Shown here: piece by piece, positions 12,629-48,312 of the stretch
Numbering within the stretch: position 1 is the stretch's first letter
Layout of the letters: each line of letters begins with the position of its first letter
Origin: the human T2T-CHM13v2.0 reference genome, Homo sapiens
Assembly: GCF_009914755.1 (NCBI RefSeq)
Contig: NC_060927.1
DNA length: 64,000 bases
Reading direction: 5' to 3' (one strand)
Position numbers and translations under genes: made by a program
Notes under the pieces: generated by a model
What the model was told of the DNA's origin: nothing
Databases searched by the model: none
What the model saw: the letters and a program-made list of their open reading frames with translations, nothing else

Positions 12629-12733
12629 CTTTACCATCCTAATTAGTGTTTTCAACTGATAAATATGAAGCTGTAAGTCCATCCGGTCCGTCAACCAGGT
12701 GCAGATCACGTTCATGGAGCTGTTGTACCATTG
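12629..12733 (-). CDS. CADPS: CADPS penultimate coding exon, 105 nt ([35 protein letters not shown])
   Basis: Acceptor tttgtctctttttcag|CAA, donor AAG|gtaaaa. Lies inside track ORF 12593..12841 and is in frame with both neighbours. Confidence 0.97.
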
Positions 12734-16650: not shown

Positions 16651-16683
16651 GTTAGCTACCACCACCTCCACCACTGCAATCAA

Positions 16684-16713
<30 letters not shown>
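16684..16713. repeat. (CAT)n microsatellite
   Basis: About 10 CAT units at the MIR tail. Confidence 0.9.
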
Positions 16714-16714
<1 letters not shown>

Positions 16715-17216: not shown

Positions 17217-17582
<366 letters not shown>

Positions 17583-17765
17583 CATGGACATACTTTCAAT
17601 ATGTGACAGAAAGACATTTTTTTGATCCTCCCTTTCTAGTAAGAAGCTTAGATCATTAATATGCAGATACACTTGGGTCACCCATTCTGCCCTGCAAACA
17701 TACTGACTTCATGTAGAGAAATCCTTAAACATAAAATATTTATTCTCTAACATTCGGGTTCACCA

Positions 17766-17992
17766 AGGCCAGGATTAGGGTGAGGGAGTAGGGCAGGGTT
17801 GTACAAGTGCAGGATCAGATCATGTCTTTAATGAAAATTTTGATATTTCAGTCATCATGGATTTTTTGCACTAATTTTGATTTTATAAAAATGTTGTATT
17901 AAAATGTTATTTATCTTGGTTACTATATTTTTTGGTTCTCCCTTAAATTTTGTGATAGAAAAGTTGCTCACTTACCTCTTCCTAGCCCTGCT
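17766..17992. mobile_element. MER96B-like hAT DNA transposon
   Basis: ggattagggtgagg...aaaattttgatattt...catcatggattttttgca...cccttaaatttt resembles MER96B. Confidence 0.5.
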
Positions 17993-20336: not shown

Positions 20337-20679
<343 letters not shown>

Positions 20680-21563
20680 CCCACCTTTTTGAGCAGCTTC
20701 TGTTTTTCTAAAAATGCCTGAGCAAGCAGGCAATTTGGTAACTGTTTGGTAACCAATCGGTGTTTTTGAACTGAATGCTGGAGGATTTTTATATTTTCTC
20801 TGGAAAGTTCCCTTTCTCTAACCCAACACAGCCACACCTCAGAGAAACTGGCACAGCATCTTGCCTAGAGGGGCTAATGAAATAACATTTTGTTTGTTGG
20901 CAAGGAGTCAAAGAGGAAGATAATACTTTGACCACGCCCATGTGACTAAGTTCTTCATTTTGTTTTTGGTGACAAAAGTGAACTATTATTTAAGGGAAAA
21001 AACCCCTACAACCTATTTCAATTGCTATATTGAAATACTGTAATGAAATATTTTATGTTTGAAGCTTTCAATGCGTATTTCTTCCTTACAATTTGGGTAA
21101 TTTAAGAACATGGGAAAAGCATCATTCAGGGTTTCTTTACACTTCCACCAAAGTCCCTGTAGCTTCATTAGCCTAAGCCAAAATTCCACAGCCCCCTGGG
21201 TCTCTCAGGTCTAACGATTACCGGGGATCTGGTTGTATTTGGTGTTCTAATCAAAGATTCACAGAGGGTCTGACAAAGAAACCCTGGCACGTTCAAGCCG
21301 TCTATGCCAAGTGGGCAAAGCACTAAAGGACGGCACGCAGTTCATAGCAAGTTTCCAGATTTGTCAAAGCTTCCCAAGGGCTGAACAAATACTTTCTAAA
21401 AGGGCATATCCTCCAAATGCGTTCAAGAACCAGTATGCCGTTGAAAGATACAATCTTCTGCCTTACTTGAGTGTTGCTATAATTCAGGATTCACCCTTCA
21501 AAACAACTGCTCTTAGAAATGGGTATTTCCCAGTCACAGCTTCAGGACGCGCAGCTAACAGCA

Positions 21564-21624
21564 CAAAGCTATAATCAGACACCAAAGCTATAATCAGACA
21601 CCGAAGCTCTAAACAGACACCAAA
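21564..21624. repeat. 19-bp minisatellite, ~3.2 copies (caaagctataatcagacac)
   Basis: Two identical units and a third with 3 substitutions. Confidence 0.9.
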
Positions 21625-22834
21625 ATCAGAGGGTACAGATAATCAGAATGACCTTCTCAGCTGCCCTAAGTGTCATTTTTAGTTGAGGGTAGGATTTTTT
21701 TTTTTTTTTTTAACGTCCGTAATTCTTTGGATACCTGAAAACCCATGCCACTGAAGTCTTTACAAAGCTATCAGTGCTGTGGCTTTTCAGGATGGCCGGG
21801 TCCTAAAGTTTGGACGGCAGCTCCCTGAGGACTCACTGACGGAGGAGTCTGAGACAACGTGCTACAACCACAGTTTCAGAGACTATGGCTTTCTATAACC
21901 TGCTGCTGAGAGAATTCAGCTCCTCTTTTGCCTTTAGCCTTTTCTCATTAGGAAGAGATAATGCAAAAGACATAATAATTTAAAAGATATATTTAAATTA
22001 TTACTGCTTAAAATATTTGCTGCTTCTGTGGGAAGGTATAAGGGATTTAACATTTGGGAGCATTATTTCAACTCCCTTAGGAAGGTCCCAAATATCTTGA
22101 TTTTTTATTAAGATAAGCAGTTATCTATTAATGACCAAATTCCAACTCTGTAAAATGTGTAATAAGTAATTCTTTAGCATCAAAATTTCTAACGAATGAT
22201 TAAAGGGATGAATCCACAAGTAGACTCCCGACTTAATGCATTTCAGCCTTCTAACCCAAGTCAGTCCTGTTGCATGGGGGAAATTTCAAGGGGAGGCAAG
22301 AGTCCAGAAGGATCCTTTCTAAAAGCAAATCAAGCAGGGGAGTTTAATCCAAAGCTTAGCTTATATGAACTATCTAGGGGTCTCTCTCTGGAAGACACAT
22401 CTAGTGGGGAATTTTTAGCTAGCCAAAGCCAGAATACAAGTAAGTATGTTGCTTCTGAATCAATCTGATTGTCTAAAACCCAACAAGTCACAAAATCCCC
22501 CTTTATCCTACCCAATCCCACTTTTCAATATGGCGGGTGGTCATCAGTGAGGAGGTGTGATGGTCTCAGAAAGGCTATCTTTCCTAATAATCATAAGATA
22601 TTGCTGGAAATGGTGTACCATCTTCAAAGGAGAAAACTAAGCCAAAGTTCAACTCATTGACACCAACTTAAAGACACGAAGGCACAAGATGGGAAAGCAG
22701 AGGCACTGATGTGAATTTTCAGTTAGGAATACTACCTCCAACCCAAAAGCAAATACCACTTTTCCGGTTTCCACAACCTGAGTAAGTACCATTATACTTA
22801 CTCAAAAGTGGAACTTTTGAGTATAGATGCAAAA

Positions 22835-23328
22835 ACATTGAAAGTAGGATCTAGAAGAGATACGCCCACATTGATGTTCATAGCAGCTTTATTCACAATA
22901 GCTGGAAGGTAGAAGCAACCCAAGTGTCCATCAGAGGATGAGTGGGTAAACAAAATGGGGTATATACATACAATGGAATATTATTCAGCCTTAAAAAGGA
23001 AGGAAATCCTGTCACATGCTACAATATAGATAACCCTTGAAGATATTATGCTAAATGAAATAAGTCAGTCACGAAAAGATAAAAACTGTATGATTCCACT
23101 TATATGAGGTATCTAGAACAGTCAGAAAGTAGAACAGTGTTACCAGGGGCTAAGGGGAGGGGTAAATGGGAGTTGTTTAATGGGTGAGAGTTTCAGTTTT
23201 GCAAGATGAAACGACGTCTACAGATCGGTTGCATAACACTGTGAATCTATATAATACTATTGAACTGTACACTTAGAGATGGTTAAGACAGTACATTTTT
23301 TGTTATGTGATTTTATGACAATTAAAAG
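22835..23328 (+). mobile_element. L1MA/MB-type 3' end fragment
   Basis: atgttcatagcagctttattcacaatagc...aagcaacccaagtgtccatca...tatgattccacttatatgagg...gaactgtacactta. Confidence 0.85.
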
Positions 23329-26300
23329 AAAGATGGGAAATAAAAATCACTTCCCATACTTAAAACGAAACTTTGCCTAAGAAAGAACAGATATGTAGCA
23401 ATGTACATATTCTAATCTGGCACACCCAAACATACTTTAAAAAAAAAAAAAAAAAATCTTTGTAAGATGAGTGTAGTCATTTCATTTAATCCCAGGACTG
23501 AGGCAATTTCTCAAGCTCTCAAGGCTCCACAGAATTTTGAGATTATGAAGAACAAAGAACAAATCTGGTAGCATTTGCTCAGTCATTTATTTGGTTTATT
23601 TAAAACATGCCACGGGGCCAACATTTCTAAATCTGTGAAATAGAATTAAATGAAGCCCAGAGATGAGAACTGAGAATCCTCATAGAGGACTGGATCCAAA
23701 CAACAAGAAAAGGATGCATTTTTTTACACCGTGAACCACATCACCTCATATGTTTTCACAGAGACTCCCCTGTCCCTTATCCACCAGCCCCCGCTCCAAT
23801 TTTTCAAGCCAGATCTGCTCAAGCAATACTCAGCCCTGAGACCCCAGTTGCCCAAAAGGGCAACAGCTCTCCATCCAGAATCACTCCCACCACAACAGAC
23901 TTATTAAGGTTTGGAATGTGTGTTCAGGAAGCCCTTATTTTAGGAAACAATTAAGTAGAATTAGGCTAATAATGCAAGGCAGGCAAAGCTTTTGCCCTTT
24001 GCTGAAAAATAACTCCTACGTGGAACAGTTATACTAATAAAAATCATGTATTTCTTAAATGCCTCAAAATGATCTTTGCACCAAGCTCAGCAATTAACAC
24101 TGCCCCACTGAGGAGCATTTATTCTCCAGGCTTGGGAGGATTAATCTCCCTGTTCGCCCAACCAATGTCTTCTGTTGGTGAAAATACAGTGTGAGGCTTT
24201 GGGGTCTGGGAATAGAAATTTCTGCAAGTGGGAATTTTGCAGGAGGCTTAATTCCCTTCTCATCTCAGAGGGTGGCAAGGTGGGAAGGAAGGGCTGGGAG
24301 CCCCCCACTAGGCCCAAATAGAGGCCACATCAAAACTCTTCTCGGGCCTACCTGTTCTTGACCTCCAGGGAGGACGGGAAGGCCTTTCTTCAAGTGGCCT
24401 GGGCCTTGTCTACTGGGGGATTGTTCCCAACCCCCCCAAACCCACTCTCCCCTCAAAGTAGCCATTCATGGGCCTTCCTCTGGGCCAGAAGCAATAGATA
24501 TCCCAGCTCCAAGTCTGGGCAGGAAGTGACCGCTGGGCAAAAGCGGGACACAGACCCTCCCGTCTGATGCTTTGTCTCCTTGACAACACCCCAGCTGGTG
24601 GCCCGAGGCACAGGCTTAATTTCTTTTCTTTCTCTGCCCACCCTCCCCGCCCCATACTTCTTTCCCTCTTTCTCTACACGCACACGTACGACATCCAACA
24701 TAAAGTTGCCGAAATAGCAATCTTGTCTCTGAATATATAAATTGCAAAAATTGATATGAATAAATCTGCAAGTAGCACACTGATTGTGGCACATTTTATC
24801 AAAAAACGGCGCTCGGTTGCTCGGTGGCTGGGGAGGGGGTTGGTGTCATTACACATACAGAAAAACATCTGCAAACTCCCAGTTTCTTTACTTAGAACTG
24901 AATGGAGGCATGACCTCCTGTTCCTTGCCATGAACCCTGAGTTCACACTCATATTTTACATGTTACAGGAAGCCACAGCTCGCCCCAGGGGTGCTGCAAA
25001 CAGACACGCAGAAGCCAGATGTAGCCCCCACCCCCCCAACTCCTTAATGCACCTGAAGAAGCCGGCAACTCGACATTCAAAAGCTGACATGCTCGTAGCT
25101 TAAGGTCACTTCAGATTTTGTAAAGAGGAGGACAAAACCAGGAATGCTTCTAGGGCTGGGCTGTCAGCGGGGAGGCAGAGGGATTACAAGAAACCTGTGA
25201 CTCTGCCTCTTTCTGCCTTTGCTGGTAGTTTTTTTGTGTGTGAACAAGTGCCATACAACAGATTGAGCCTCGTATAAAGGCCTGAGACTGTGCAAGGGTT
25301 CCCCGCTGGGCCTCAGCTGTGCTTGCAATTAGCAATAGGCACGGAGTGATTATTGTTGGGGTAGCGGATGGCAATGCGAAGTGACAAGTTTTATGGGGGA
25401 AGTTGGGAGTGGGGAATGCTCTGCAAGTTTCTCTTTCTTTCTTTTTTCTTTCCTTTTTTCTTGTTCTGCAAAATACCCTTCCTTGGGAGGCTGCAACCTC
25501 CTGTTTCAGTGAAAGCTATTTTTCTTTTTCCCTCGTCATTCAAAAGAGTCTTAACAAAATTGTTTGAAAGAATATTTTTCTCAGTGCTTCAGAATGCGGG
25601 TTTTCTAGGTCAGAGCTTCCTTGCTGCCCTATTTAATGTCAGAAATACCCATTTGCCTCAAATTAGCAGAGAGCTTGGAGTTGAGGGCAGGAGATTAAGC
25701 ACACAAAATTACTCAGCAGGTGACGGTGGGGTGGATTTGGGGGTTGAGAAGTCTTTAAAACTGACTACAAGACATTATATACTTCTGACAAAAGAACATA
25801 GTAATCCTACCTGCTTGCTTTAACCACTGTTGTTTGCCTATTATTATGTGCTTTAATGCTCATGAGAGCAAAACTATTGCTGATACTACTCAATTACCAT
25901 AGTAACTCACACCAGTGACCTCTTATCACAGGGCTCCCAGCCCAGCTAAACCAATCCAGACAGTTTGTGTCTTTTTATTTATTTAAACGGTGACATATAC
26001 TTGGACTGGAAAGCTCCAAATAGAGTCGACTCCTCTCTTTGTCTAGAATAAGAACTTGTTTTGAAATTTTGAGTAAGGGCCTTTTCACCTTTTGAATCTG
26101 AGGTGGTTCTGAAGTTTATGGATTTGAGGCTGTGAAACGCCTTCAAAAACATGAAGACACCGAACAATGCCCAATAAAAAGAAAAGAACATGTGTACATC
26201 AGAGACCAGCAGCCTCCCAGCTGCAGGAAAAGTTATGTTTCCCACTCAGGTCTCCAGCTATGGTCTCTCAAAGATTGGTAGGAGGAAAACTGGAGGTTCT

Positions 26301-26420
26301 TCCTGGGGGACCATTGCTATTTTATCATTTCAGTGGGCTAAACACAGACAGGACAAAATGACTACTCAGAGGGATTTAACTCTAAGTTTTAAAAAGGAAT
26401 TAAAGGTGACATTAATATAC

Positions 26421-26603
26421 TTTTTTTTTTTTTCTGAGACAGGGTCTTACTCTGTCATCACCCAGGCTGCTGTTACCCAGGCTGGAGTGGAGTGGCGCGA
26501 TCACGGCTCACTGCAGCCTCAACCTCCCTGGGCTCAGGTGATCCTCCCACCTCAGCCTCCCAAGTAGCTGGGACTACAGGCGTGCACCACCGTGCCCAGC
26601 TAA
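26421..26603 (-). mobile_element. Alu right-arm monomer (AluJ/FRAM-type) with a small internal duplication
   Basis: T-tract plus one monomer; acccaggctg is repeated at 26460-26483. Confidence 0.88.
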
Positions 26604-26827
26604 GCATACATTTTTCTAGCTTCGCATTTTTCACTGGCCTGTGAATGTATATGTGAATACATGTGTGCATACTCTATGCTGTACTCTGTCTGAACACTAT
26701 TGGTGATTCTGATTTGTTGTGCCACATTAGCATATTAAACGCTCTGAGAAGTTCTGTAGTAGAGAAGTCCGTTTAACTTTGTGTTTTTCCAAATGTACTT
26801 AACACAATAACTATTTTTCTTTTATTC

Positions 26828-27157
<330 letters not shown>

Positions 27158-27248
27158 TGAGCCACCCATTAAATTCTCTCAGGATGTTTATGTCTCATTG
27201 AATCTGATTTGGAAAAAAGTTCTATAGTGACATTAATAATATTGCAAT

Positions 27249-27578
27249 GACTCACAGCTGTAATCCCAGCACTTTGGGAGGCTGAGGCAGGAGGATCACT
27301 ATAGGTCAGGAGTTCCAAGGCTGAGGTGAGCTATGATTGCACCACTGCACTCCAGCCTGGGTGACGAAGTGAAACTGTCTCTAAAACAAACAAACAAACA
27401 AAAAAAAACCTAGCAATAATAATAATAAAAGTAGGCAGAGAACAATGACATGTGCCTATAGTCTCAGCTACTTGGGAGTTTGAGGCGGGAGGATCACTAG
27501 AACCCAGGAATTTAAGGCCAGCCTGGGCAACAAGTGAGATCCTAGTATCTTAAAAAAAGAAAAGAAAAGAAAAGAAAA
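27249..27578 (+). mobile_element. Two Alu monomers (FLAM/FRAM-like) at ~27249-27408 and ~27434-27578
   Basis: Each is one Alu-like arm with its own A-rich tail ((AAAC)n and (GAAAA)n). Confidence 0.8.
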
Positions 27579-27849
27579 TATTTAGTGAGCACTTATTATA
27601 TATCGGGCACTATTCTAAGCAGTGTATATGACTTAAACTCATTTACTTCTCCTAACAACCTTAAGAAGTAATGACTTGTTAAATCCTATTTTACATTTCT
27701 ATAGTATATAATATTTATATGAATTTGTTCTCTATGAAAAAGGAAGAAAAGGAAATGTAATTTCATATGTAATAAATTGGCTTTTAATTTTTATTGTATT
27801 TTTCCTGTTTCTGAGCCTTCAGAGATTGGGAAGCCCATGGGTTACATGT

Positions 27850-28238
<389 letters not shown>

Positions 28239-30409
28239 TAAATGAAGAGCAAGGCAAAAACCTTCAAAACCCTCCCACCTTTGAACTCAAGGTGCCCAAA
28301 TATCAAAATATACCTTCCCCCCTCTATCTCTTTTGATTAGCCTCCAAGGCCCTCCTGCCTTGAAAGAAAGAATCTAACTTAGATGTCAAAATTAGATCTG
28401 TGCTTGCCTGTGCACAACAGAACTTCTGAAACTGCGGAATGTCTAAGAAATTAAATAAAAATGTAACCAATGGTCAAACCCTGAATGAAAAATGGAACAT
28501 GGGCCAGACACCAGCTGCTCTAATACCCCTGGCTCAACAGCAGGACATATCACAGCAAAATCAGGAAAACTCGATTTTGTGACACTTACATAGAAAATTT
28601 TTGTAGCAAACATCAGAAGCTGACACCTTACTTTCTGCAAGCAAACCGGGAAACTGTGATATGTAAGAGAAAAGGAATGGCTCTCTTATGTACCTGAATT
28701 TCTCAGTTCCGACCATTTCTTTCTTCAAGATACATAAATAATGAGCCCAATGTGATTAAGCCCCAATCAGCTTCTAACCAGGCCTTGTCTGCCACCTGTG
28801 TCTCCCAGGGCAGGTGTGCAGTTTGGGCATTAACAAACTGACCACTGTTAACAATACCTTTTTCCTAGGGCCTATTTTTCTCTGGATATGTTGGGGGATT
28901 TATTCATAGGCCTCCCTGTGCACTGAGAAAATGGACCCCCATGCCTTTAGCCTCCATCCTCTCAAAGGAACTTACTGTTTTGAGAAAATGTATAGTTACA
29001 ATCTGAATTTGCACTTTCAAGTCGTCTCAATCTTTTAAAGCTTGATTATGTCAAAAAGAAAATTCCAGTTTTGGTGGCACATCCTACCACCCATTATCCT
29101 TGTGAGCAGTGCGAATAATTTATCTGAAAACTATTCTCTGATATGCATACAAGAACTTAAGATGTAGGAGAAGGATTCAGCGTATGAACTGAATTCAGAT
29201 TGTTCACGAACAGCATCTGCCCACTCCCCTGATCGCTTCTTAGGTATGGGAACTGCATTTAGAGTGAACTGCATTAATTCGCAAGCAGATTGACGTAAGC
29301 AACTGAATAAGAAATTTGCATACCATATAGAAATGATTATAGAAATCATACTCTAAAATAAGGATAGTAACTCATGTACAGAACGGAAAGATAAAGTGGA
29401 GTGCCAACTCTGCCGTCTTAAAACAGGGTTGGCTAATCATATTAGGGCTAATTTCATAATTTGCACACATTAAACTTTCTAGAGTCATGAATCATTAGAG
29501 TTTTGTGAGCCAAAGTTGAAGTTCTTACTTAGGAAAATTCAAATTGACTTTAGGGAGTTGCTTTCCCGGGCTGAGGTGGTTTTCATCATTACTCTCAACA
29601 TACAAAAGCATGGTCTATGTATGTACATAATTTCCAGGCTATTACATGGAAAAAAATTCAGGTGAATAGGTAAATGGAATGCTTTACATTAAACCACACA
29701 GCTGGTTTCCAAGCAGATAGTGAAAGGACACAAATATACCATCTAAAAGGTACTGTCTGGAATCCTAGAATTTGAAGACAATAAGACCCAACAACTCTAA
29801 CTGGGTTAAGAACACTTTCCAAAGTCCTCTAGACAGTTTTGAAACTAGATCTATTTCAATTCAATGAACATGAGCTCTTTGGGGAATGATTTCTCATAAG
29901 GGAAGAACATGATCTTTTTAGGAGCTGGATATGGCATTGAGTGGTTTCCAAAAAGCAGTCAACATACAAGGACTGGGTGCAGGGACAATATTCAGATGGT
30001 GGTCCAGGAGCTGGGAGGGGTGTTGGGTTTCAGAAGAGAAGGCAGAGTGGCATGAAGGCTGGAGGAGGGAAGATGGCAGCAGATTGGGGAGAGCATGGCA
30101 GGCAGCACAGGTGGATGGAGAGGGCATCTTGATCTCCTAGGAGGGAATATTTGGGTGTCCATAGCAACTGCCCAATTAAGGGAGTCTAGAAAACAGGTTC
30201 TGATGCCTGGGGCCCAGGAATGAGGAAAATAAAGACAAAGTGCTGCTTTTTAAAAGTTAACATGTGTTTTCACCATGTACAGCTGGGTTCTGCCTCCAAT
30301 GGCGCCCTTTCCTCTTGCTTTATTTTTACTCTCAGGAAACCGTATTCTCCTCTTTCTACTTCTCACTGCATATGACTCTATTTTTTTTCTCTTTATGGGA
30401 GGGAGAACG

Positions 30410-30410
<1 letters not shown>

Positions 30411-30451
<41 letters not shown>

Positions 30452-30469
30452 CACACACACACACCACAC
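30411..30469. repeat. (AC)19 plus imperfect extension; (UG)n in CADPS pre-mRNA
   Basis: Read directly from the sequence. Confidence 0.95.
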
Positions 30470-32005
30470 TTGCCAGATCACTTACCCAAACCTTACCCTG
30501 GGGAGCCAGCCATCTCATTTCTGTAAAAGGCACAAACCTCAGACCATTGTCCTTATACAAGATACACATTCAACATGCTGGGTGCCCTCGACAGCTACAG
30601 ATGGTTTGGGATCCACCAGCCAGGAGGTAAGAAGTCTGCGTCAGGTCCCCCATTGAAGTGTTCAGATGGGTCTAGGGCCTGAGCACAGAGAGTTAAATCA
30701 TAAATTAGCCATGAGTTAATACGTGAGGCCCGGATCACTCTGCCTTGCCGTCAATGCTTCTCGTCCACAAGGCTCCCTCCCCCTTCCTCCCCACACCCCC
30801 CACCCTTTTGAGGTGACAGAATAAGAAATTAAACACTTGTGGGTTCATTCGAAAGAGTGAATGAAATTGAATAAGCTCTCAGTACTTGAGGCGCACAGCG
30901 AGCGCCTGAATGGGGCAAACCTCCTAAGTTGAATGGAGTGTCTTTTGGGACCAATTTGTCTCTTTTCACTCTTTATTCTTCCCTTTTTGCTGACAGATGT
31001 ACAAAGGCGGAACTGCGCCGTGCAGCTTATCCGCATGCACCCACAGCAGCTGTCACTTTTGTCGAGCAAGTTAATCAAGCAAATGCCACCATATCCCACT
31101 TTCTATAAGGAACAACATGTTATAGACAGTAGTCTTGCTAGAAAGAGACTTTATTTTAACTTTGATTGGCTTCGTTCCCCCACCCCTCCTGACGCTTCCC
31201 CCTTTTCCCCCCAAAGGAGGGGGAAGGGGGGACTTTGCCCAAGCCAAGGATTTGGCTATGACAATGTCAGATTTCATAATAATATTGTGTGTGAGGCTGG
31301 AGACGCATTTGGAGTTCTTTCCTAGGGATGGAGGGATGCCCCGGGTCTGGGTTTTTTTGGAGTGTGCTATTGTTTGTGCTGGACTGTTAGGCTGCATGTC
31401 TCAAGTTATAAAAAGAAAAGCCGAGGGCAGAAAATAGTATTACGCCACGAATGTCTTGGATTAATTTTATTCTTTTTTCCTTTGTAAAGCAGGTTGTGTT
31501 ATTTACATATTTCTTTTGATAAGCCTCCTTGCCTGGCTAAGCTTACAAAGACTGTGCTAAATACATAATAGCATTTCTTTGTGCATCTTGTCGTTAGCGA
31601 GTTCTTTAAGTTGAATGCCCAAATTTATTTCTAATGTGCACCAACAAATGCAAGCAGGCCTCCATTTCTCTAATTCTGTGTAAGCCAAGTGGGGAGCCTT
31701 TACAAGAATTCCCTCACGTCCACATCCACTTACCCTTCTGCCTCAGTTACCACTATTTGATGGTGTTCAGAAACCACAGGCAAGAGTGAGCTTCATTAAA
31801 CGGTACGCAGTGCTGACCTCAGCCACTGCCCCTGAGCCCCCAACCTGAATGCCAAAACCAGACATATTTTGAATAAACAAACTCTTTAGAAACAATGCAT
31901 ATAGGCCACTTTCCAATGGCCAAGGGATTTGCCACTTTCAAGAGTTGGCTAACAGCTGACGATCTATCGGGAAAGCTCTTTAAAGTTTCAAGAGAAAAAA
32001 CAACT

Positions 32006-32097
32006 CCCTTTTTTTCTTTTCTCCTTTCTTCCTTCCTTTCTCTTTCTTTTCTTTCTTTCCTCTTTTCTTTTCCTTCCTTACTTTTTTTCTCTTTCAT
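32006..32097. repeat. CT-rich polypyrimidine low-complexity tract
   Basis: About 90 nt almost entirely C/T. Confidence 0.85.
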
Positions 32098-33650
32098 CAC
32101 CTTGTCACATTGTTTAGTGTAAGCTTTGGTTAGAAATAAATCAAGACAGGACTTTGGTGATACCTGATCTCAAATTTTCACATTGCTGACATCTTAGGCA
32201 TTATTGGATAATGACCACGTAATGATTTAGTTGCAACTCCATTTGTATTATGCACAGATTGTATAACCATGTTATTCTATAACTGTCGATTACTCACCTC
32301 CCCTTTCCATAAAGTATTGCTAATCTGTGAAACCTCATAGTGCCATTGAAAACTTAGCTATGTAGGTAGGTTAAAAGAGTCAACAGTACCTCATTGGAAA
32401 ATCTTGAGCATTGTTATTTAATAATACCACTGTGTCAAGCTTTGCTTAAGGAACTTAAGCTGCTACCCTAAACCATTTATTAACTGTCTGGGATGTAATG
32501 CTATTGTGTTACCAACATTTTACCCCCCAAATAAACCACAAAACTTTATTCTTATGGGATAAAAGATCTTAGAACACAGAGGGAGAGATAGACTGAAAGC
32601 TGAGACCTACCCCTTAGTTAGGCCTAGGTAGAAGTGGATTTTGAAGCATATATGGTATGCAAGATTCCCTACTGCGCTGTAGTCTCTTTCAGCTGAGGAT
32701 GGGGTATCACCCTGAAGTGGGTTACAGAAGTGCTTTCTGGGATCATTTTAGGACCAGGGTCTGCTGGTATTCATAGAGCTTGAGTCCAGTGACAATGTCC
32801 CCACATTCACGAAAAGACCTGCCCTAATGGGGTTGAATTTTCATTAAGGGGTCTCTCTGATTAGCTATGCAACACCCATCATTGTTAGTGGACAAGCTGT
32901 GACTAATAAGCCACGTTCTAGCTAGAGGGTCATAGAATCACAATTTCTGTCTTATATCCTGCGGTGATCCATGAGGGAAATAGTGATTACAGTAAGAACC
33001 CCAGTGGATGAATTTGGGACACATAGCACTCAGTATAGTGGGGGCTTTTAGGGGTAGGAAGCACATATTTGAATAGTGTAAAGTTTTTGCCTAAGATATT
33101 ATAGTTACATGGCTATTCTTGTGGTCAGAAAGAAAGAGGTTGGATCTAGGACTATTTTCCAGGCTTCTGAATTTGCCGAAGTCAGTTTGCCACTCAGTAA
33201 ACCAATTTCTTCATCTATAAAAACCTACCTCACAAGGAGATCATGAAAATTACATGCATTATTACACTTAAGTGCCTAGAACAGTACCTGGTACATAGTG
33301 CCCAGTGAATATTGGCTCTCATTGGCCTCAATACCTGTAACATGGAGATCACGAAGGTTCCTATATCCTAGGGCTGCTAAGAGGATTTAAAAGAAATAAC
33401 ACATTTAACAAGATGGTGCTGCTATCTCTAATGTACAGTCAGGAAAATATACATTTAGAAAACTCTAAATAAATGTTATAATTGTTATTATTAAACAGCC
33501 ATTTATTAGAAACTTCAATTAATTGGAATCTTTCCTCGTGTTTTCCTCTTAGGAGAATGCTGCCTTTTTTTCTCTCCCTAAAAGCCCTCTTTGGGATTTG
33601 TATCAAAAGAGCAGCTTTCAGAATGTGCTTTGGGCTGACAAACACTGTAG

Positions 33651-34032
<382 letters not shown>

Positions 34033-34761
34033 TGATAATTCACTCTTTTAACATCTTTGAGACTGGATAGTGACACCTGGGGTTAAGTAGTGTGAAGCAA
34101 GAGTTCTAAAGTGTCTTGACCCAGAGCATTAGACTTGGCTTCAGATGCTCAATAAGGTGGAAAACAGAACTAAAACATTTACAAAATTGTTTCAAAAGTT
34201 GTCGAAACAGAAAAGGTTTTCCAATGAATCTTCAAATTCACCAAAAAATCAAATGGGCCAAAGCGATTCATTACCCATTACATGAACCAGAATACTATAT
34301 TTTCAAGGCTTACAAAAAATCAACTGACAATTGCAAAAATCCACAGTGAGATTCTTTAAGGACTTAATTCATGTTTTTGAGTTAGAATTGGAAACCGAAA
34401 ATATACCTGACAAACTACACAAGATACTATCAGGGCTAGGAAGTCATCAATACCTATTTAACAAATGGTTATTGAAGGCTTACATATGCCGGACACTAGT
34501 GGTGAATTAGGTAGACAATAACAGTGCTCTCAGAGGTGGGGATGAAAATACCATAGTTTCAGAAGAAAGGGCCCTGAGGATCTGGGCAAGTTCATTTTGG
34601 ACCTCAGGTTTCCTGTCTTAAAATGAAAATAATACTATCTCTTCCCATCTCTCCACAGTGTTGCTACAGAATAAATAAAGTTATGAAGTCTTGTAAGATA
34701 CAAAGTAGGAAGGGTATTAACAGAAATAAACATGTATTTCAGTATCTTTTATCCTTAGAGT

Positions 34762-34960
34762 CAGGGTTCAGCCACCTCAGCACTATTGACATTTTTGCAG
34801 ATAATTATTTGTTATGGGGGGGACTGTCTTGTTCATGGTAGTATGTTCACCGCCTATCCATTAGATGCCAGTAGCACCCTCCCGCCACCAATCAAAAATG
34901 TCTCCAGACATTTCCAAATGTGCTGTAGGGGACAAAATCACCCACAATGGAGAACCACTG
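34762..34960 (-). mobile_element. MER20 (hAT-Charlie)
   Basis: cactattgacattt...tagatgccagtagcac...aaaaatgtctccagacat...gagaaccactg. Confidence 0.8.
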
Positions 34961-35699
34961 CTCTAAATTAGTGGTTCTTGACCAGATTAAACTCTCGGAA
35001 CTTATTTTAAAAACAGATGTCTAATCCCTACCTTAGATCTACTGAATCAGAATATTTAATGTACAACTGGAATGAGTACATTTTTAAAATAAAAAAGTAC
35101 ATATGTAGTTCTGATGCATACCCCTGGTTAAGAAGCAAACATTAAAAGACAAAATTACACGCACATAAAAAGAATTTAGCCCTCAAGTTTCTCGAGCAGC
35201 GAATGCCTACAAAGCAGGTACCTACATGCCTAGATTGGAGTCATCATAACTGGGTTGAAGCCATCCTTTGTTTAAAAGTGAATAGTGTAATTTCTGAAAG
35301 AATATTTCCAAGGAGAAGCTCTGTTAAGGCTAATGAAGATACAGTGTTGGTAAGTCAGGGACACTCCCAAAGGAAGCAATAATGTTTCCTTGCTTAGTGC
35401 CTAAGCATAGACTCCTGCCTCTTTCGCCTCCCCAAATCCTGGACATCTGTAGATTAAGCCCAGTCCTGCCTCCTGGGGCACCTTCTTTGAGGCTTCCATC
35501 TCACTGGGATATTACTTTAGTCTAAGAAAGATTTCCTTTAGCGATACTGTGGCACAACTGAGCTCTCTGCTACTTGCTATCATGTTTTCTGATCATTTCA
35601 TCACTGGTAAAGATCCCTGTTGGTGTGGAATGTATCGCTACTTTTCTCTCCGCTGCAAAGCCTACCTTAGTATTAGGAAAGGGTGTGGGGTGTGTGTTG

Positions 35700-35999
<300 letters not shown>

Positions 36000-36336
36000 G
36001 TGTGTTGGTTTTTTACACCACTACCACTACTGATGACGACAACAATAAGAAGAGATATTCATGGAGTCATTTCTATGTGCCATGCACTGTGGTTTGTGCT
36101 TTAGAGGCATCGCCTCATTTAGTCCTCCTAATTCAAAAAGCTACCTACTGTTTTTATCCACTTTTTTTACAGAAAAGAAAATTGAGTCTTGGAGAGGGTA
36201 AAGTAGCTTACCCGATGTCACACAGCTAGTAAGTGGCAGACCCAGGAATTAAACTTAGAAATGTCTGACTGCAAAGCCTATGCTCCTAACATCTGCTCGA
36301 TATAAAGAAACAAGTCCCTTGAAAAGTTGACAGGGC

Positions 36337-36640
36337 GGTCAGGCATGGTGGCTCACTCCTGTAATCCCAGCACTTTGGGAGGCCGAGGTGGGCAGATCAT
36401 GAGGTCAGGAGATCGAGACCATACTGGCTAACACGATGAAACCCTGTCTCTACTAAAAATACAAAAAAAAAAAAATTAGCTGGGCATGGTGGCAGGCGCC
36501 TATAGTCCCAGCTACTAGGGAGGCTGAGGCAGGAGAATGGCGTGAACCCAGGAGGCAGAGCTTGTGGTGAGCAGAGATTGCGCCACTACACTCCAGCCTG
36601 GGTGACAGAGCGAGACTCCGTATCAAAAAAAAAAAAAAAA
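36337..36640 (+). mobile_element. Alu (AluY-like)
   Basis: Diagnostic gagatcgagacca and ggagaatggcgtgaaccc; 16-bp TSD gaaaagttgacagggc at 36321-36336 and 36641-36656. Confidence 0.95.
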
Positions 36641-36997
36641 GAAAAGTTGACAGGGCACCTTTCAGTAGAAGGAGGCTGTAGTGACTCATTGAACTGACAA
36701 GATCTGAGTTTTTGTTGAAGCATTAATGCTCCATGGGAACTATAGATGGGTGAGTGTTAAGTTCAAGTTGGCAAAATTAGGTGTTAATAATTGCTTTTTA
36801 TTTTTTAGCTCCTAAAAACATGTTTTTGGATGAAGCTTGTCAAAAGGATTTCTGAGACGAGTTCCCGAGATATCTACCAGGTAGAATATCCTTTAGAGAC
36901 AGTCACTGGAGTCCCACAGATCATGCTCATGATTTAAACTCAAATAATCCATTCACTAAAGACAAATGATTTGTGTCAGTGGAAGTATCATCTAGAG

Positions 36998-37214
36998 CAT
37001 GGTTTTTCAATCTCTCTACACTATTGCTATTTTGAGCTGGATCATCCTTTACTGTAGGGGCTGTCCTGTGCACTACAGGAGGTTCAGCACTGGCCTCTGC
37101 TTGCTAGATGCCAGTAACATGCCCCCAACCCCCGAGTTGTAGCAACCAGGAATGTCTCCAGACATGGTTAAAAGTCCTCTGTGGGACAAAAATCACCCCC
37201 CGGTAGAAGCACTA
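36998..37214 (-). mobile_element. MER20
   Basis: ggggctgtcctgtgcact...ctagatgccagtaac...aatgtctccagacat...aaaatcacccc. Confidence 0.8.
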
Positions 37215-37820
37215 ACTCAGAGTTCCCCAAACTAATGAAGCACCTAATAACTGAGTCTTTTCTCTTTAACAGGATGATTTCCTAGGGCAAAGAATGAATT
37301 TTCTGAACAAAAGGGAGTGATATTTCTCTTCCTTAAAAGATGATTTTAAAGAAATTTCACTAGAAAGCAACTCATGCATTTAACTTTGCTTACTTTACAT
37401 ATTATTTGTTCTTTTCTAAAAAAAAAATCTTTTTTTCTACACAAATAATGAGAGGGGCTTTATACCTTGGTTGGCATACAGATCTGTTAATTAATAATAC
37501 TCCCATCCTGGGCAAGACCTGGAGCTTTGTTGGTATAACTGGCTTTAGTCCAGGGATGGTCAGAATGGAAAATTCTGCCAAAGGCAGTCAAGGCAGCCCA
37601 ATATGGCAAGTGACACTATCATTGTAAGCCTTTTGATACAGGAATATTCACACTGGAGGCAAATCACTAGACTCTATTAACTGGATTTTTAGTCAACTCA
37701 GCAGGAGTTTAACAGAAGAACAGGAGGCTGTTAACTGTTCTCTTCTGAATTGGGAATTTGGAATGAATGAAGTATTTAAGTTGAGCCTTCTTTTCAGGTT
37801 TTTGGACACACAAAAATAAC

Positions 37821-37839
37821 TTGCAGCCACCTGGTGGAA
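37821..37839 (-). promoter_or_regulatory. Candidate CTCF site (CCACCAGGTGGCTGC)
   Basis: Fits the CCASNAGRKGGC core; motif match only. Confidence 0.45.
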
Positions 37840-37842
37840 GCA

Positions 37843-37846
<4 letters not shown>

Positions 37847-37882
<36 letters not shown>
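37847..37882. repeat. T36 homopolymer
   Basis: Read directly from the sequence. Confidence 0.95.
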
Positions 37883-37887
<5 letters not shown>

Positions 37888-38317
37888 GAGGTCCGGGTGG
37901 AACTATAAAAAGGAAAGGAAAGAGAAGTAATCAAGGGAGGCCAAAGTGGGAAGCTGTATTGCTGATCTAACGTGCTGTTCCAGTTCCTTCTTTTGGCTCT
38001 AAGTGGGACTATTCTGGATACAGTCAGGGGAGAAGAGGGTCCTGGATGTCTAACAAGCTTTTCCCATCATTGCATGGAGTCCTCCAAACATAATCTCCTT
38101 CAGAGACTGGCAAAGGCTCCCAAGCTAACTCCCAGATGGACACATGGACTTCTTGAGTAATCATTTTAACAATTCCTAAGCTCGACTTTGTTGTTGCTAC
38201 ATCATACTCATCGCGTTTTTGTGTGATGATGGCAGTGGCAGGGGGCTGTATTACATCCAGAGAGGAAGGGCTACCTGTATACTTTTAGTGGTAACCTCTT
38301 TTCTAGTTTGTGCAGAT

Positions 38318-38532
38318 CAGTGGTTCTCAAATGGGGATGATTTTGCCCCCCAGGGGAAATTTGGCCATATCTGGAGACATTTTCTTCATTTTGAGAAGGA
38401 CAGTGGCTGCTACTGGTGTCTAGAGTAGAAACCAGGGATGCTGCTCAACATCCTTTAATACACAGACTAGCACTCTACAACAAAGAATTATCTGACTCAA
38501 AATGTCAGTGGTGCCAAAGACGAGAAACTTTG
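38318..38532 (+). mobile_element. MER20
   Basis: cagtggttctcaa...gattttgccccccagggga...caacaaagaattatc...gagaaactttg. Confidence 0.85.
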
Positions 38533-38779
38533 CTTTAGAAGTATTTTTGAAACTGAGGATTGTAAACTTATTTGTGTGTAGTAGAATCATTTTACCTGTT
38601 ACCACTGAAATTTTTGAAATTCAGTGGTAATATCAGGAACTATCAGACTGCATCACATAAATATTGTTTTATAAACTTTTGTTTCGTGTGTGTGTACACG
38701 CACACTGGGTTGCAATGTAAAATTTCTTTCTCATTGTGAGTTGGGGCAAATAAGTTTGAAGTAATTGATCTTGCCCACT

Positions 38780-38940
38780 ATGTGCCAAACTTTTATGTGC
38801 ACTTGAATCAAAGAGACTCTTGTTAAAATGCAGATTCTGATTCATTTGGTCTGGGGTTAGGGCTGAGACTATATATCTCTTACAAACTTCCAGATGATGC
38901 TGATGCTGAGGGCCTGTGGATCACATTTTGAATAACAAGA
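38780..38940. mobile_element. MER5-type DNA transposon
   Basis: cttgttaaaatgcagattctgattca...ccagatgatgctgatgctg...cacattttgaataaca. Confidence 0.6.
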
Positions 38941-41900
38941 ACCTATGCAAGATTTAAATTCACTCATTAAAATAATTAGAGCAGTAACTATGTATCTAGG
39001 TATTGATCGTGAAATCTTTTGATAGCCTATCTGGAGCCCAGCAGGGAGAGAAATAGTTACTTGTTTAATAAATGAGAAGTATTTGAGGATTTAACACAGC
39101 TCGTCTCCTGCAATGCAATGTGATAATATTTCTTCCACAAAATGTGCTTTGGCTACTCTGTGTGTTTGTGTGTGTGTGTGTGTGTGCACACGCGTACTTG
39201 TACATGTGTACTGTGTTTGAGTCTGTCACTTACTGCTTCCATGCCGTTAAGTCTGCCATAAGAAAAAAAAAAACCCCTGTTCTAAGACACAGAAGTATTG
39301 TGTGGGTCATGTTAACAAGAATACTGTGACCTTAACGTAACAGAGCAATCAGCTTGGCTTCTTAGAATGATTAATGGAACATTCTCCTCTGGAAAGGAAA
39401 ACAAATTAACTGTCTTCACCAAATGTCTTCTGGAACACAGAAAGCTGTTCTGATAAAGACACTTAGCAAAACTCTTCATTGCCTACAAGCTCCAGAGAAA
39501 ATTCAAGACTGGCTTTATGTAAGGTTTGCCTGAAGGTAAGAGAGATCTATTTCTATGAATGGCTTTGGAAGGAAATAGCTAGATTAGAAAACTACTTGAA
39601 GATATGTTACAGAAATGTAAATCTGTGAGAATACCAACAAAAAACCCCTCAGTTTCTTTTGGATAGTAATAACCCATTTAACATGATTAATCCAAATCTG
39701 TTAATGCCCCTTATCTTTTTTTGTATGCAGGATTGCTGAAAGTTCAAAATACCCAGGCATGGAGTGAAGCATTCCCAAGTCCATGTGGAATGGAAATGTG
39801 TTTCTATACCTAAGACTCCAAAAGCAAAGTAATTAATTGTTATCACTTACTTGTAATTGTGAAGCCCATGGGGGAAGAGGGGATTGACATTTGAATACTA
39901 TTCACTGCAATAGGGCATCAGAAAAGCACCAAAACACTCGGTTCATCTCCTCTCATCCTAATAGAAGAGGAATTATCAAAACTGTTAAAAGCAGATTTGG
40001 ATGGTGGGAGTTAGAGAAAGCATGAAGACACTGGGAATTCGAGTGGCCCTGGAGGGCATAAGTCATGAAAACGAACTTGGATTGTTTTTTAATTTTAGCT
40101 TGGAAGTATCCTGAGGTTCACTTCCAAGAATCCAAACAGAGCTTAGATTGGGACTGAATACATGGTTTTCCTCTGCCAAGGAAACTTAACTCCCTAATAA
40201 GGTATATATCTTACATACATACATACACATACACACACACCCTATTTTAAAATATATATATCATATATATATAGATACCCGTTACGTAACAATATTTAGT
40301 AGGTAATGTTACCAATCAAGGTGAGTGATGGGTTTCTCATTTCCCTCCAACTTGTCTCCAGTTTCTGTATTCTTTTTGGGAAATGACACTCTACAGCTGT
40401 AATGCATGGCCTAGGGTATGACTTAATTGCCAGAGTTTACTTTGGGGCTCGAAAATAGATGAAAGAATCAACTGTCTCTTCTTCCTGTAACTGCCTTTCC
40501 CAGTTCATTTGGATTAGCTTTCTGGTTTCAATACACATAATCTCACAGATTCTAAGGGATGTCCTAGTAGCCTGGCTGACATGCTCTTTAGCTTCATAAT
40601 TGAGGATAGAGATGAGGTCACAGTTCAATTAAAATTTGATCTAAAGAGTATGGAAAAGCTCAGCTTCAGACTGATTTGGAGGGCTTAATTTCAGATTGAT
40701 AACCTCGGGGAAAATCCCGGTAGAATTAACAAAGGACCCTTCCCAATAGTATGGGTATGTGTGTGTCAAAGTCACCAGTCTAAGACTTCAAAGCAGTTAC
40801 AGTGACACAAGAAATGCTGGACTGTGACCCTCTGATTTACCCACCCAGCTCAGATAGCTGTGCCTTATTCCAGTAGTTAAAATCTCTGTATGTCTTCACA
40901 TGGCCACCTTGTACTCTGGCCTCTGTGAGTTTTTTACAGTTTAGCCCCACCTCAATCTTTTTTTTTTAAACTAGCTTCAGAAGTTTTCCTTACATACAGA
41001 GAACAGCTTAAATAAAAAACCCCGGTTGAATTCTGCTAAGTTACTAATTATGTTTAAAAGAACTACTTGGTTGAATTCAGCTTGATTTTTTTTTTTTTTC
41101 TCAGCAAATCAGTTCTATGTTTAGATAGTAATAAACTCCTCCAGTCTGCAGAACAATTGGCACGGCAGTCCCTATAACAAGTCAAGATCATGAAAAAAGG
41201 GCCAGTGCTGGTTCAAAATAAATTTAAGGGGCATCACAACCTTGCCCTGCATCAAATCCTGGTTTGCACAAACCAGCTGTAAAGAATATTTTGGGGACAA
41301 GTGGGTAATTTTGAATACAGTGTATGAGAGGAAAATTTACTGGCATGGGAAATAGTGACCATTAACTTTAAAAAGCAATTTTTTTGCTTACTCATTTTAG
41401 AAAAAGAGTACATTATATATATATATAATTATATAGAAAAAGATTAAAAAAAACACCACTGATAATGATATGTGGGTGCTGGGAACACAACATTTTAATC
41501 TTCTTATTTTTTGGTTAGCCATATTTTCTAAATGTCTACAATATACATATACTGCATCTTAATAGTAAAGGGTATTAATTACTCCCTCCCTCTCTCTGCC
41601 CCCACCCCCCAAAACCCTGAAGTTCCGAAGGTTAATTCTGATTTATTTGGCAATGCAGTGTAGTTTTGTTGAGGGGGTAGAGCTAGGCTATTTCAAAATC
41701 ACTTGAAGGAACAAGTAGTTCTATGAGATGATAAGGATGATGATGATAAGAGACTCATTGAATTTTTAACTACGTCTGTCTACATTCATTATATCATTTA
41801 GTCCTCACGAAAACTGTAAGAAGCCAGTTTCTTTACAGATGGGGAAATTGAGGCTTAGGGAAGTGAAATAATTGACCCCAGGTTAGAAAGCTCAAAAGTG

Positions 41901-42149
41901 GCAGAACCAAGTTTCCTCCTTCTGTCTGTCTTACTTCAAAGCCCCACTCCTGACCATCACTATTTTGCCTGTTTCAGGAAGATGTTTTACCAAAAGTAAA
42001 AAAGGTACCAGGCTGCTCTACATCAAGCAATTCTAAGCAAGCTTGGGGTTAATGTCTTAAAGTGATGGGGAGACTCATAGCACCTTAACATGAATATGAA
42101 ACTTTGCTTAACAAGGAAAAAAAGAAGGCTGGGAAAAGCATTTCCATTT

Positions 42150-42187
42150 TGATGATGATGATGATAGTGATGATGATGATGGTGGTG
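42150..42187. repeat. (GAT)n microsatellite at a MIR end
   Basis: Read directly; source of the spurious poly-His ORF. Confidence 0.85.
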
Positions 42188-47656: not shown

Positions 47657-47764
47657 ATCAAATAACCTTTCTATGTACATCTCCTCATTGACCTTATCAC
47701 GCAGGACATCCTGAGAATGGCGGACGAAAGTCACGTAGGCGTCGGCCACGTCCATCCCGGGTTT
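47657..47764 (-). CDS. CADPS: CADPS internal coding exon, 108 nt ([36 protein letters not shown]); carries the A-to-I recoded Glu codon
   Basis: Acceptor cctgtttctttacag|AAA, donor GAT|gtaagt. Lies inside track ORF 47537..47827; recognisable CAPS1 C-terminal region. Confidence 0.97.

Positions 47765-48308: not shown

Positions 48309-48312
<4 letters not shown>

What the first reader, a model, noticed from the sequence alone, without database searches (positions are those of the whole stretch)
30411..30540. Candidate TDP-43-repressed poison micro-exon in the 35-kb CADPS intron
Seen on the minus strand: gtttgtgccttttacag|AAATGAGATGGCTGGCTCCCCAGG|gtaaggtttgg|gtaagtgatctggcaagtgtggtgtgtg...(TG)19. 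That is a good acceptor (AG at 30521-30522) and two consensus donors, giving a 24-nt (30497-30520) or 35-nt (30486-30520) exon, with a long UG tract starting ~15 nt downstream. The intron is phase 0, so inclusion reads Lys-STOP, removes the last 94 residues and leaves the stop more than 50 nt upstream of the last junction (NMD rule). A UGC at -12..-10 resembles the SRRM4 micro-exon motif. Known: TDP-43 binds UG repeats and represses adjacent cryptic exons, as in UNC13A, another MUN-domain vesicle priming factor. Inference: loss of TDP-43 or a shorter repeat would lower CAPS1. I cannot tell whether this exon is already reported, and the branch point looks weak.
Basis: partly seen in the sequence, partly recalled or inferred. 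Interest (0 to 1): 0.82.

Follow-up and report, generated by a model that had tools for sequence, protein, structure and literature searches.

The report
Known TDP-43-repressed CADPS cryptic exon

Summary
That covers the acceptor AG at 30522-30521, donors after 30497 and 30486, (TG)6 plus (TG)19 downstream, a phase-0 intron, and AAA-TGA.

The locus is already in print. Sinha et al. 2025 (PMC12262666, supplementary Table 1, CE046) list one CADPS cassette cryptic exon of 193 nt in this intron. Its PSI is 0-0.7 in controls, 9.6 after TARDBP knockdown and 28-51 with added NMD inhibition.

That exon maps to window 30486-30678, minus strand. The real stop is TAG at 30597-30595, after 27 new residues.

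Ma et al. 2022 had already listed this intron as mis-spliced in TDP-43-negative patient nuclei, with |dPSI| about 0.66.

Verdict: the mechanism is right, the exon boundaries are wrong, and the finding is not novel. Direct TDP-43 binding to the tract is inferred; I saw no CLIP data. The effect of repeat length remains open.

The parts
30486..30678 (-). Published 193-nt CADPS cassette cryptic exon (Sinha 2025 CE046, hg38 chr3:62420936-62421128)
   Evidence: Of 12 hg38-to-window offsets tried, only one (62390450) puts AG before and GT after a 193-nt stretch. That offset lies between the offsets of the two intron ends, 62390452 and 62390447.
30679..30738 (-). Acceptor region of the published exon: AG at 30680-30679, pyrimidine-rich stretch and branch-point candidates
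   Evidence: Context is atgatttaactctctgtgctcag|GCC, with 11 of 16 pyrimidines at -20..-5. There are 6 yUnAy motifs between -46 and -15, including CTAAT at -27 and TTAAC at -15.
30480..30488 (-).
   Evidence: The left junction chr3:62403186-62420935 maps to window 12734-30485. U1 duplex energy is -11.1 kcal/mol, rank 6 of 1897 GT sites in the intron.
30411..30469 (-). UG-rich tract on the pre-mRNA: GUGUGG, (UG)6, CC, (UG)19. Presumed TDP-43 binding site 16-75 nt downstream of the donor.
   Evidence: TRF array of 30 copies, score 97. Exact runs are given. It is the longest UG tract on the transcribed strand of the intron. Binding itself is inferred, not seen.
30595..30597 (-). Premature stop codon TAG, the 28th codon of the cryptic exon
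   Evidence: Translation of upstream exons + 193-nt exon + downstream exons gives 27 new residues (ALDPSEHFNGGPDADFLPPGWWIPNHL) and then a stop. The stop is 109 nt before the exon's 3' end and 214 nt before the last exon junction.
30497..30520 (-). Its acceptor AG 30522-30521 and first donor AGG|gtaagg have no reported use.
   Evidence: The sequence is present. The acceptor has 10 of 16 pyrimidines and no yUnAy motif at -50..-9. The one CADPS row in Sinha 2025 Table 1 has no short variant.
47657..47764 (-). Upstream canonical CADPS exon; its donor joins the cryptic acceptor
   Evidence: Hub annotation, with frame checked. The right junction chr3:62421129-62438103 maps to window 30679-47656.
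12629..12733 (-). Downstream canonical CADPS exon (penultimate); its acceptor receives the cryptic donor
   Evidence: Hub annotation, with frame checked.

Best explanation
Window 30486-30678 (minus strand) is the already published 193-nt cryptic cassette exon of CADPS.

In healthy neurons the exon is skipped. The likely reason (inferred) is that TDP-43 molecules coat the (UG)6-CC-(UG)19 tract that starts about 16 nt downstream of a very strong donor (TGG|gtaagt). This would block U1 snRNP binding and exon definition.

When TDP-43 is lost, the donor pairs with the acceptor at AG 30680-30679, and the exon is spliced between canonical exons 47657-47764 and 12629-12733. It adds 27 foreign residues and a TAG (30597-30595) and shifts the frame. 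The mRNA is therefore largely destroyed by NMD and CAPS1 falls.

For: Shown in print (seen in supplements):
- Sinha 2025 Table 1, row CE046, lists a cassette exon of 193 nt with splice sites AC/CT (minus strand). avgPSI is 0 / 0.6 / 0.6 / 0.7 / 0.6 in five control conditions, 9.6 with sgTARDBP, and 50.8 / 34.5 / 28.1 / 50.4 with sgTARDBP plus four NMD knockdowns.
- The Fig. 1C legend of that paper names 'CADPS1' among exons measurable after NMD inhibition.
- Ma 2022 Supplementary Table (file 10) lists chr3:62403185-62438104, which is this intron. MAJIQ max |dPSI| is 0.656, LeafCutter FDR is 7.41e-5 and LeafCutter |dPSI| is 0.657. These values are close to STMN2 (0.682 / 0.706).
- A later preprint calls CADPS a previously reported cryptic-exon gene.

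Shown here:
- The exon maps uniquely to 30486-30678 (1 of 12 offsets).
- The stop codon and its distances follow the NMD rule.
- The donor ranks 6 of 1897 GT sites in the intron.
- The UG tract is the longest of 3 on the transcribed strand of the intron.

Consistent with loss of product:
- A Brown 2022 supplementary table (file 2, caption not seen) marks CADPS 'downregulated', log2FC -0.906, padj 6.6e-109. That is about a 47% drop, close to the roughly 50% PSI seen under NMD block.
- CADPS protein is reported reduced in ALS motor neurons (passage in PMC10926001).

Sinha 2025 also report [UG]n enrichment at the 3' end of their cryptic exons in general (section read).
Against: - I saw no CLIP data for TDP-43 on this tract. 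Sinha et al. used the presence of a nearby [UG]n as a criterion for accepting an event, so the tract is not independent evidence of binding.
- The Fig. 1C legend says these exons are not identifiable with TDP-43 knockdown alone, while the table gives 9.6%.
- Ma 2022 gives only the intron, not the exon bounds, so the event in patient nuclei is assumed to be the same exon.
- The hg38-to-T2T mapping is by arithmetic and splice dinucleotides. I did not align the two assemblies.
- My splice measures are crude (consensus counts, pyrimidine counts, U1 duplex energy), not MaxEntScan or SpliceAI. One annotated acceptor (12733) also has 0 yUnAy motifs.
- The captions of the Brown 2022 tables were not seen.
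Confidence: 0.88

Rival explanations
1. The inner acceptor (AG 30522-30521) is used with donor 30497 or 30486, giving a 24- or 35-nt poison micro-exon that reads Lys-stop. It might depend on SRRM4 and exist beside or instead of the 193-nt exon.
For: The sites are present, and the TGC at -12..-10 is present. Both donors are strong, ranking 20 and 6 of 1897. The acceptor's pyrimidine count (10 of 16) is only one below that of the used acceptor (11 of 16). Short exons are easily missed by read aligners (established knowledge).
Against: Sinha 2025 list long and short variants for other genes (ADARB2, ADCY1, AGRN and ATG4B in the part read). CADPS has a single 193-nt row. A micro-exon of 24-35 nt needs special enhancers, and none is shown here.
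Confidence: 0.08
2. The 193-nt exon is real, but its de-repression is an indirect effect of TDP-43 loss, for example through altered levels of other splicing factors. The UG tract would then be a neutral microsatellite that happens to lie nearby.
For: No CLIP data were seen. TDP-43 loss alters many splicing regulators: the multiomic preprint lists hnRNPs and SRSFs in its TDP-43 cluster (passage). Microsatellites are common, with 45 TRF rows in the window.
Against: The tract is the longest UG run on the transcribed strand of a 34.9-kb intron and begins 16 nt from the donor actually used. The expected chance proximity is about 0.005 (my arithmetic). UG repeats next to the 3' end of the exon are the general signature of direct TDP-43 targets (Sinha 2025, section read). 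TDP-43's preference for (UG)n is established knowledge.
Confidence: 0.08
3. The region matters mainly as DNA. It lies in a RefSeq 'enhancer' feature (29691-31974), the (TG)n is a structural element of that enhancer, and the splicing event is a by-product.
For: The hub annotation places an enhancer feature over the locus. This does not exclude the splicing role.
Against: Nothing seen here tests enhancer activity. The RNA-level event is measured and large, so this cannot replace the splicing explanation.
Confidence: 0.04

Closest known systems
UNC13A cryptic exon (TDP-43-repressed, NMD-inducing; Ma 2022 and Brown 2022)
   Same: Both are intronic cassette exons in a MUN-domain vesicle-priming gene. 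Both are silent in controls, included on TDP-43 loss, carry a stop codon and lower the product. Both appear in the same Ma 2022 table (UNC13A 0.779 / 0.836; CADPS intron 0.656 / 0.657).
   Different: UNC13A has common risk SNPs in and near the exon that change TDP-43 binding (paper titles and abstracts; details recalled). No such variant was seen in anything I read for CADPS. Here the binding site would be a long pure dinucleotide repeat just downstream of the donor.
The other NMD-masked cryptic exons of Sinha 2025 (EPB41L4A, FOXK1, NRXN2, SDAD1)
   Same: All are named together with 'CADPS1' in the Fig. [quoted passage not shown] This is direct membership: the exon is CE046 of that list.
   Different: None in kind. 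CADPS reaches about 51% PSI under NMD block, against 9.6% without it.
STMN2 exon 2a
   Same: It is a TDP-43-repressed cryptic exon in a neuronal gene with a comparable effect size in patient nuclei (0.682 / 0.706).
   Different: STMN2 exon 2a ends in a premature polyadenylation site rather than a donor, and the GU-rich site lies inside the exon (recalled). The CADPS event is a cassette exon with NMD.
SRRM4-dependent neuronal micro-exons
   Same: The only similarity is a UGC upstream of the inner AG.
   Different: The exon actually reported is 193 nt, shifts the frame and is a disease-state product. It is not a conserved, frame-preserving 3-27-nt neuronal exon (that definition is recalled).

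Membership tests
TDP-43-repressed cryptic exon | Unannotated intronic stretch bounded by AG and GT | tested here: met
   AG at 30680-30679 and GT at 30485-30484 flank the 193 nt. The columns 'Annotated Alternate Exon' and 'Unannotated WT exon' are NA in the Sinha 2025 row. The hub's selected transcript has no exon there. The other 50 RefSeq models were not seen.
TDP-43-repressed cryptic exon | Absent in controls and included after TDP-43 depletion | tested here: met
   Taken from the published table, not from my own reads. PSI is 0-0.7 in 5 control conditions, and 9.6 to 50.8 in 5 sgTARDBP conditions. The intron is changed in TDP-43-negative nuclei.
TDP-43-repressed cryptic exon | UG-rich tract at or next to the exon | tested here: met
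   (TG)6 plus (TG)19 lie at 30412-30463, 16-75 nt downstream of the donor.
TDP-43-repressed cryptic exon | Direct TDP-43 binding (CLIP) at the tract | not testable with these tools
   No CLIP data were reachable and none was seen in the passages read.
NMD-targeted poison exon | Premature stop more than 50-55 nt upstream of the last exon junction | tested here: met
   TAG at 30597-30595 is 214 nt before the last junction.
NMD-targeted poison exon | Inclusion level rises when NMD is blocked | tested here: met
   Published values are 9.6 without and 28.1-50.8 with knockdown of UPF1, SMG6 and XRN1 in combinations.
SRRM4-type neuronal micro-exon | Exon of about 3-27 nt (at most about 51 nt) | tested here: not met
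   The reported exon is 193 nt. Use of the 24- or 35-nt form is not reported.
SRRM4-type neuronal micro-exon | UGC motif close upstream of the acceptor that is used | tested here: not met
   The TGC at -12..-10 belongs to the inner AG at 30522-30521. The used acceptor context atgatttaactctctgtgctcag has TGC at -7..-5, but with a 193-nt exon.

The most novel reading that the evidence does not exclude
The length of the (TG)n tract at 30411-30469 varies between people and may set how many TDP-43 molecules guard the strong donor at 30486. Short alleles would then leak the 193-nt poison exon at milder TDP-43 loss and lower CAPS1. That would make the repeat a genetic modifier of ALS/FTD or LATE, comparable to the UNC13A risk SNPs. 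A minor Lys-stop micro-exon form using the inner acceptor could exist beside it. T2T-CHM13 and hg38 differ by 2 nt somewhere in the 17.7-kb stretch that contains the tract. That is compatible with a one-unit difference but does not show one.
Probability: 0.15. Interest if true: 0.6.

Novelty: already known. Interest (0 to 1): 0.2.

Why it matters
CAPS1 primes dense-core and synaptic vesicles. Its loss through a TDP-43-dependent poison exon adds to the synaptic-release defect already tied to UNC13A in ALS/FTD. That point is already in the literature (Ma 2022; Sinha 2025; the 2025 multiomic preprint).

What this check adds is small:
- the exact placement of the published exon on T2T-CHM13;
- the anatomy behind it: a top-ranked donor, tandem donors 11 nt apart, a branch-point-rich acceptor, and the stop codon;
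- the correction that the micro-exon reading is wrong.

It also shows that a strong donor beside a long UG tract can flag such exons from sequence alone, though it does not fix their 5' boundary. The effect of repeat length on repression is an open, testable question.

Tried and rejected
- MaxEntScan and SpliceAI scores could not be computed because no models were on hand. I used consensus matches, pyrimidine counts, yUnAy motifs and U1 duplex energy instead. These cannot by themselves choose between the two acceptors (11 versus 10 pyrimidines).
- The pseudoexon count showed that the AG/GT pair alone is ordinary: 123-172 comparable pairs in the intron.
- A search for the exon's hg38 coordinates or the phrases 'CADPS cryptic' and 'cryptic exon in CADPS' in main texts found 1 paper. 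That paper matched on a bare number only, and I judged it unrelated from its title; it was not opened.
- Papers that mention only CADPS2, or Cadps in another context, were irrelevant (PMC12143990, PMC12987624, PMC6440020, PMC12226341).
- The Brown 2022 main text has no CADPS mention. Its readable supplements hold only expression rows for CADPS, and its .xls splicing tables could not be read.
- Seddighi 2024 is not held under its DOI.
- Supplements of the bioRxiv preprint 10.1101/2025.09.29.679403 were not looked at.
- The search of earlier findings was not open.
- No cross-species or hg38 sequence was reachable, so I tested neither conservation nor where the assemblies differ.

Full report
**1. 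The observation**

- A pyrimidine-containing stretch ends in cag, with AG at 30522-30521.
- It is followed by AAATGAGATGGCTGGCTCCCCAGG.
- Next come gtaagg (donor after 30497), then tttgg, then gtaagt (donor after 30486).
- After 16 more bases there is a UG-rich tract.

Tandem Repeats Finder reports one array in 29000-32000: (AC)30 on the plus strand at 30411-30469, score 97. On the transcribed strand the exact runs are (TG)6 at 30452-30463 and (TG)19 at 30412-30449.

The four annotated coding pieces translate cleanly. The last two total 285 nt, so the intron 12734-47656 is phase 0. The TGC at -12..-10 is there. The first donor context is AGG|gtaagg, not CAG|gt.

**2. Is it more than chance?**

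The pair of splice sites alone is not. I used simple counts: matches to the recalled 9-position donor consensus, pyrimidines at -20..-5, Y at -3, and no AG at -15..-3.
- The 34,923-nt intron holds 1897 GT and 2458 AG sites.
- 73 donors have at least 7 of 9 matches.
- 226 acceptors have at least 10 of 16 pyrimidines.
- 123 pairs lie 20-300 nt apart, or 172 pairs at a pyrimidine threshold of 9.

The donors stand out by a physical measure, the ViennaRNA duplex energy of positions -3..+8 with the recalled 11-nt 5' end of U1.
- The 30486 donor gives -11.1 kcal/mol, rank 6 of 1897.
- The 30497 donor gives -9.4 kcal/mol, rank 20 of 1897.
- The three annotated donors in the window give -6.8 to -7.4.

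Only three runs of (TG)>=6 lie on the transcribed strand of the intron. Two of them form this tract; the third is (TG)6 at 46564-46575. A top-6 donor within about 30 nt of the one long tract is expected about 0.005 times by chance. That is my arithmetic and it is post hoc.

**3. What is there: the literature**

A full-text search for CADPS, 'cryptic exon' and TDP-43 found 12 papers, of which 10 were listed.

*Sinha et al. 2025* (preprint, PMC12262666). I read the abstract, part 1 of 3 of the Results, the figure legend passage, and part 1 plus one passage of supplementary file 1. They knocked down TARDBP in i3Neurons together with NMD factors.
- The Fig. [quoted passage not shown]
- Table 1 has one CADPS row, CE046.
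- Its canonical junction is chr3:62403186-62438103.
- The exon is chr3:62420936-62421128, 193 bp, splice sites AC/CT (minus strand), type cassette.
- All flag columns are NA, including 'Annotated Alternate Exon' and 'Conserved Region'.
- avgPSI is 0, 0.6, 0.6, 0.7 and 0.6 in the five controls.
- avgPSI is 9.6 with sgTARDBP.
- avgPSI is 50.8, 34.5, 28.1 and 50.4 with sgTARDBP plus shUPF1/shSMG6, shXRN1, shXRN1/shSMG6 and shXRN1/shUPF1 (row, header).

*Ma et al. 2022* (PMC8891019). I read one abstract-section passage and all of supplementary file 10. Their 66-gene table for TDP-43-negative versus TDP-43-positive neuronal nuclei includes three CADPS regions.
- One is chr3:62403185-62438104, which is this intron.
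- Its MAJIQ max |dPSI| is 0.656, LeafCutter FDR 7.41e-5, and LeafCutter |dPSI| 0.657.
- On the same table STMN2 has 0.682 / 0.706 and UNC13A has 0.779 / 0.836.

*Other reports.*
- A 2025 preprint (10.1101/2025.09.29.679403, one passage seen) calls CADPS a 'previously reported cryptic exon-containing gene'.
- A passage in PMC10926001 lists CADPS protein as reduced in ALS motor neurons.
- In Brown et al. 2022 (PMC8891020) the main text has no CADPS mention.
- A supplementary table of that paper (file 2, caption not seen) marks CADPS 'downregulated', log2FC -0.906, padj 6.6e-109. Two others give -1.04, padj 5.0e-7.

**4. Mapping the published exon onto the window**

The hg38 intron is 34,918 nt and the window's is 34,923 nt. 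The offset is 62390452 at the low end and 62390447 at the high end. I tried 12 offsets (62390444-62390455). Only 62390450 puts AG before and GT after the 193 nt, giving window 30486-30678 on the minus strand.

Read from the upstream exon, the exon gives ALDPSEHFNGGPDADFLPPGWWIPNHL and then TAG (30597-30595). The stop is 109 nt before the exon's end and 214 nt before the last junction. The exon also shifts the frame, since 193 = 3x64+1.

**5. Why the outer acceptor?**

Sequence gives only hints.
- The outer acceptor has 11 of 16 pyrimidines and G at +1. The inner one has 10 of 16 and A at +1.
- The outer acceptor has six yUnAy motifs between -46 and -15, including CTAAT at -27 and TTAAC at -15.
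- The inner acceptor has none between -50 and -9.
- The criterion is loose, because the annotated acceptor at 12733 also has none.
- A 193-nt exon also suits exon definition better than a 24-35-nt one (established knowledge).

The data decide the matter, not these counts.

**6. Mechanism**

*Shown in print:* the exon is silent in controls, appears on TARDBP knockdown, and rises three- to five-fold more when NMD is blocked.

*Shown here:* the stop codon satisfies the NMD rule, the donor is among the strongest in the intron, and the long UG tract begins 16 nt after it.

*Inferred:* TDP-43 bound along the roughly 59-nt tract hinders U1 snRNP binding and exon definition at that donor. Its loss frees the donor, which then pairs with the acceptor 193 nt upstream. 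Sinha et al. report that [UG]n is enriched at the 3' end of their cryptic exons in general, which fits. They also required a nearby [UG]n to accept an event, so this is not independent proof. I saw no CLIP data.

The roughly 47% fall in CADPS RNA in the Brown 2022 table (2^-0.906 = 0.53) is close to the roughly 50% PSI seen when NMD is blocked. This is consistent with most exon-containing transcripts being degraded. It rests on a table whose caption I did not see.

**7. Rivals**

- The micro-exon form may exist as a minor product. It is not listed by Sinha et al., who do list long and short variants for other genes.
- An indirect effect of TDP-43 loss cannot be excluded without CLIP data or a minigene.
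- The RefSeq enhancer feature over 29691-31974 may be real at the DNA level, but it does not replace the measured splicing event.

**8. Comparison and novelty**

This is a member, by direct listing, of the set of TDP-43-repressed, NMD-masked cryptic exons. It works like the UNC13A exon. It is not an SRRM4-type micro-exon.

The finding is already known. The intron was listed in 2022 and the exon bounds and NMD masking were given in 2025. Still open:
- direct binding of TDP-43 to the tract;
- use of the inner sites;
- whether repeat length modulates repression.

T2T and hg38 differ by 2 nt somewhere between 12734 and 30485, a stretch that contains the tract, and by 3 nt between 30679 and 47656. 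I could not locate these differences.

**9. Limits**

- Paper reading closed, so the exon tables of Seddighi et al. were not seen.
- bioRxiv supplements and Brown's .xls splicing tables were not readable.
- The search of earlier findings was not open.
- No human reference other than the window, no RNA-seq, no CLIP data and no trained splice models were available.

Noticed in passing
window 30486-30497 (minus): Two strong donors lie in tandem 11 nt apart: AGG|gtaagg after 30497 and TGG|gtaagt after 30486. Only the downstream one is reported as used. With the outer acceptor, the upstream one would give a 182-nt exon.
   Followed up: partly
window 46551-46575: A second, short UG tract lies on the transcribed strand of the same intron, about 1.1 kb downstream of the exon 47657 donor. 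It is (AC)12.5 by TRF, with a perfect (TG)6 at 46564-46575. No cryptic exon is listed there.
   Followed up: no
window 48269-48309 and 59350-59381 (also 39159-39186): (TG)20.5, (GT)16 and (TG)14 on the plus strand are CA repeats in the CADPS pre-mRNA. They lie in the two upstream introns and in the 35-kb intron. CA repeats are binding sites of hnRNP L (recalled).
   Followed up: no
window 12734-47656: The intron is 5 nt longer in T2T-CHM13 than in hg38 (34,923 versus 34,918). Two of the extra bases lie on the low side of the cryptic exon, the side that holds the (TG)n tract, and three lie on the high side.
   Followed up: partly
outside the window (hg38 chr3:62478416-62491339 and 62492446-62516059): Ma 2022 list two more CADPS regions as mis-spliced in TDP-43-negative nuclei, with MAJIQ 0.372 and 0.532. 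Sinha 2025 list only one CADPS cryptic exon, so these two events are unexplained here.
   Followed up: no
window 29691-31974: A RefSeq 'enhancer' functional element (hub annotation) covers the cryptic exon and the UG tract. Whether the element and the exon are related is unknown.
   Followed up: no
PMC12262666, Fig. 1C legend versus Table 1: The legend says the CADPS exon is not identifiable with TDP-43 knockdown alone, while the table gives avgPSI 9.6 for sgTARDBP alone.
   Followed up: no
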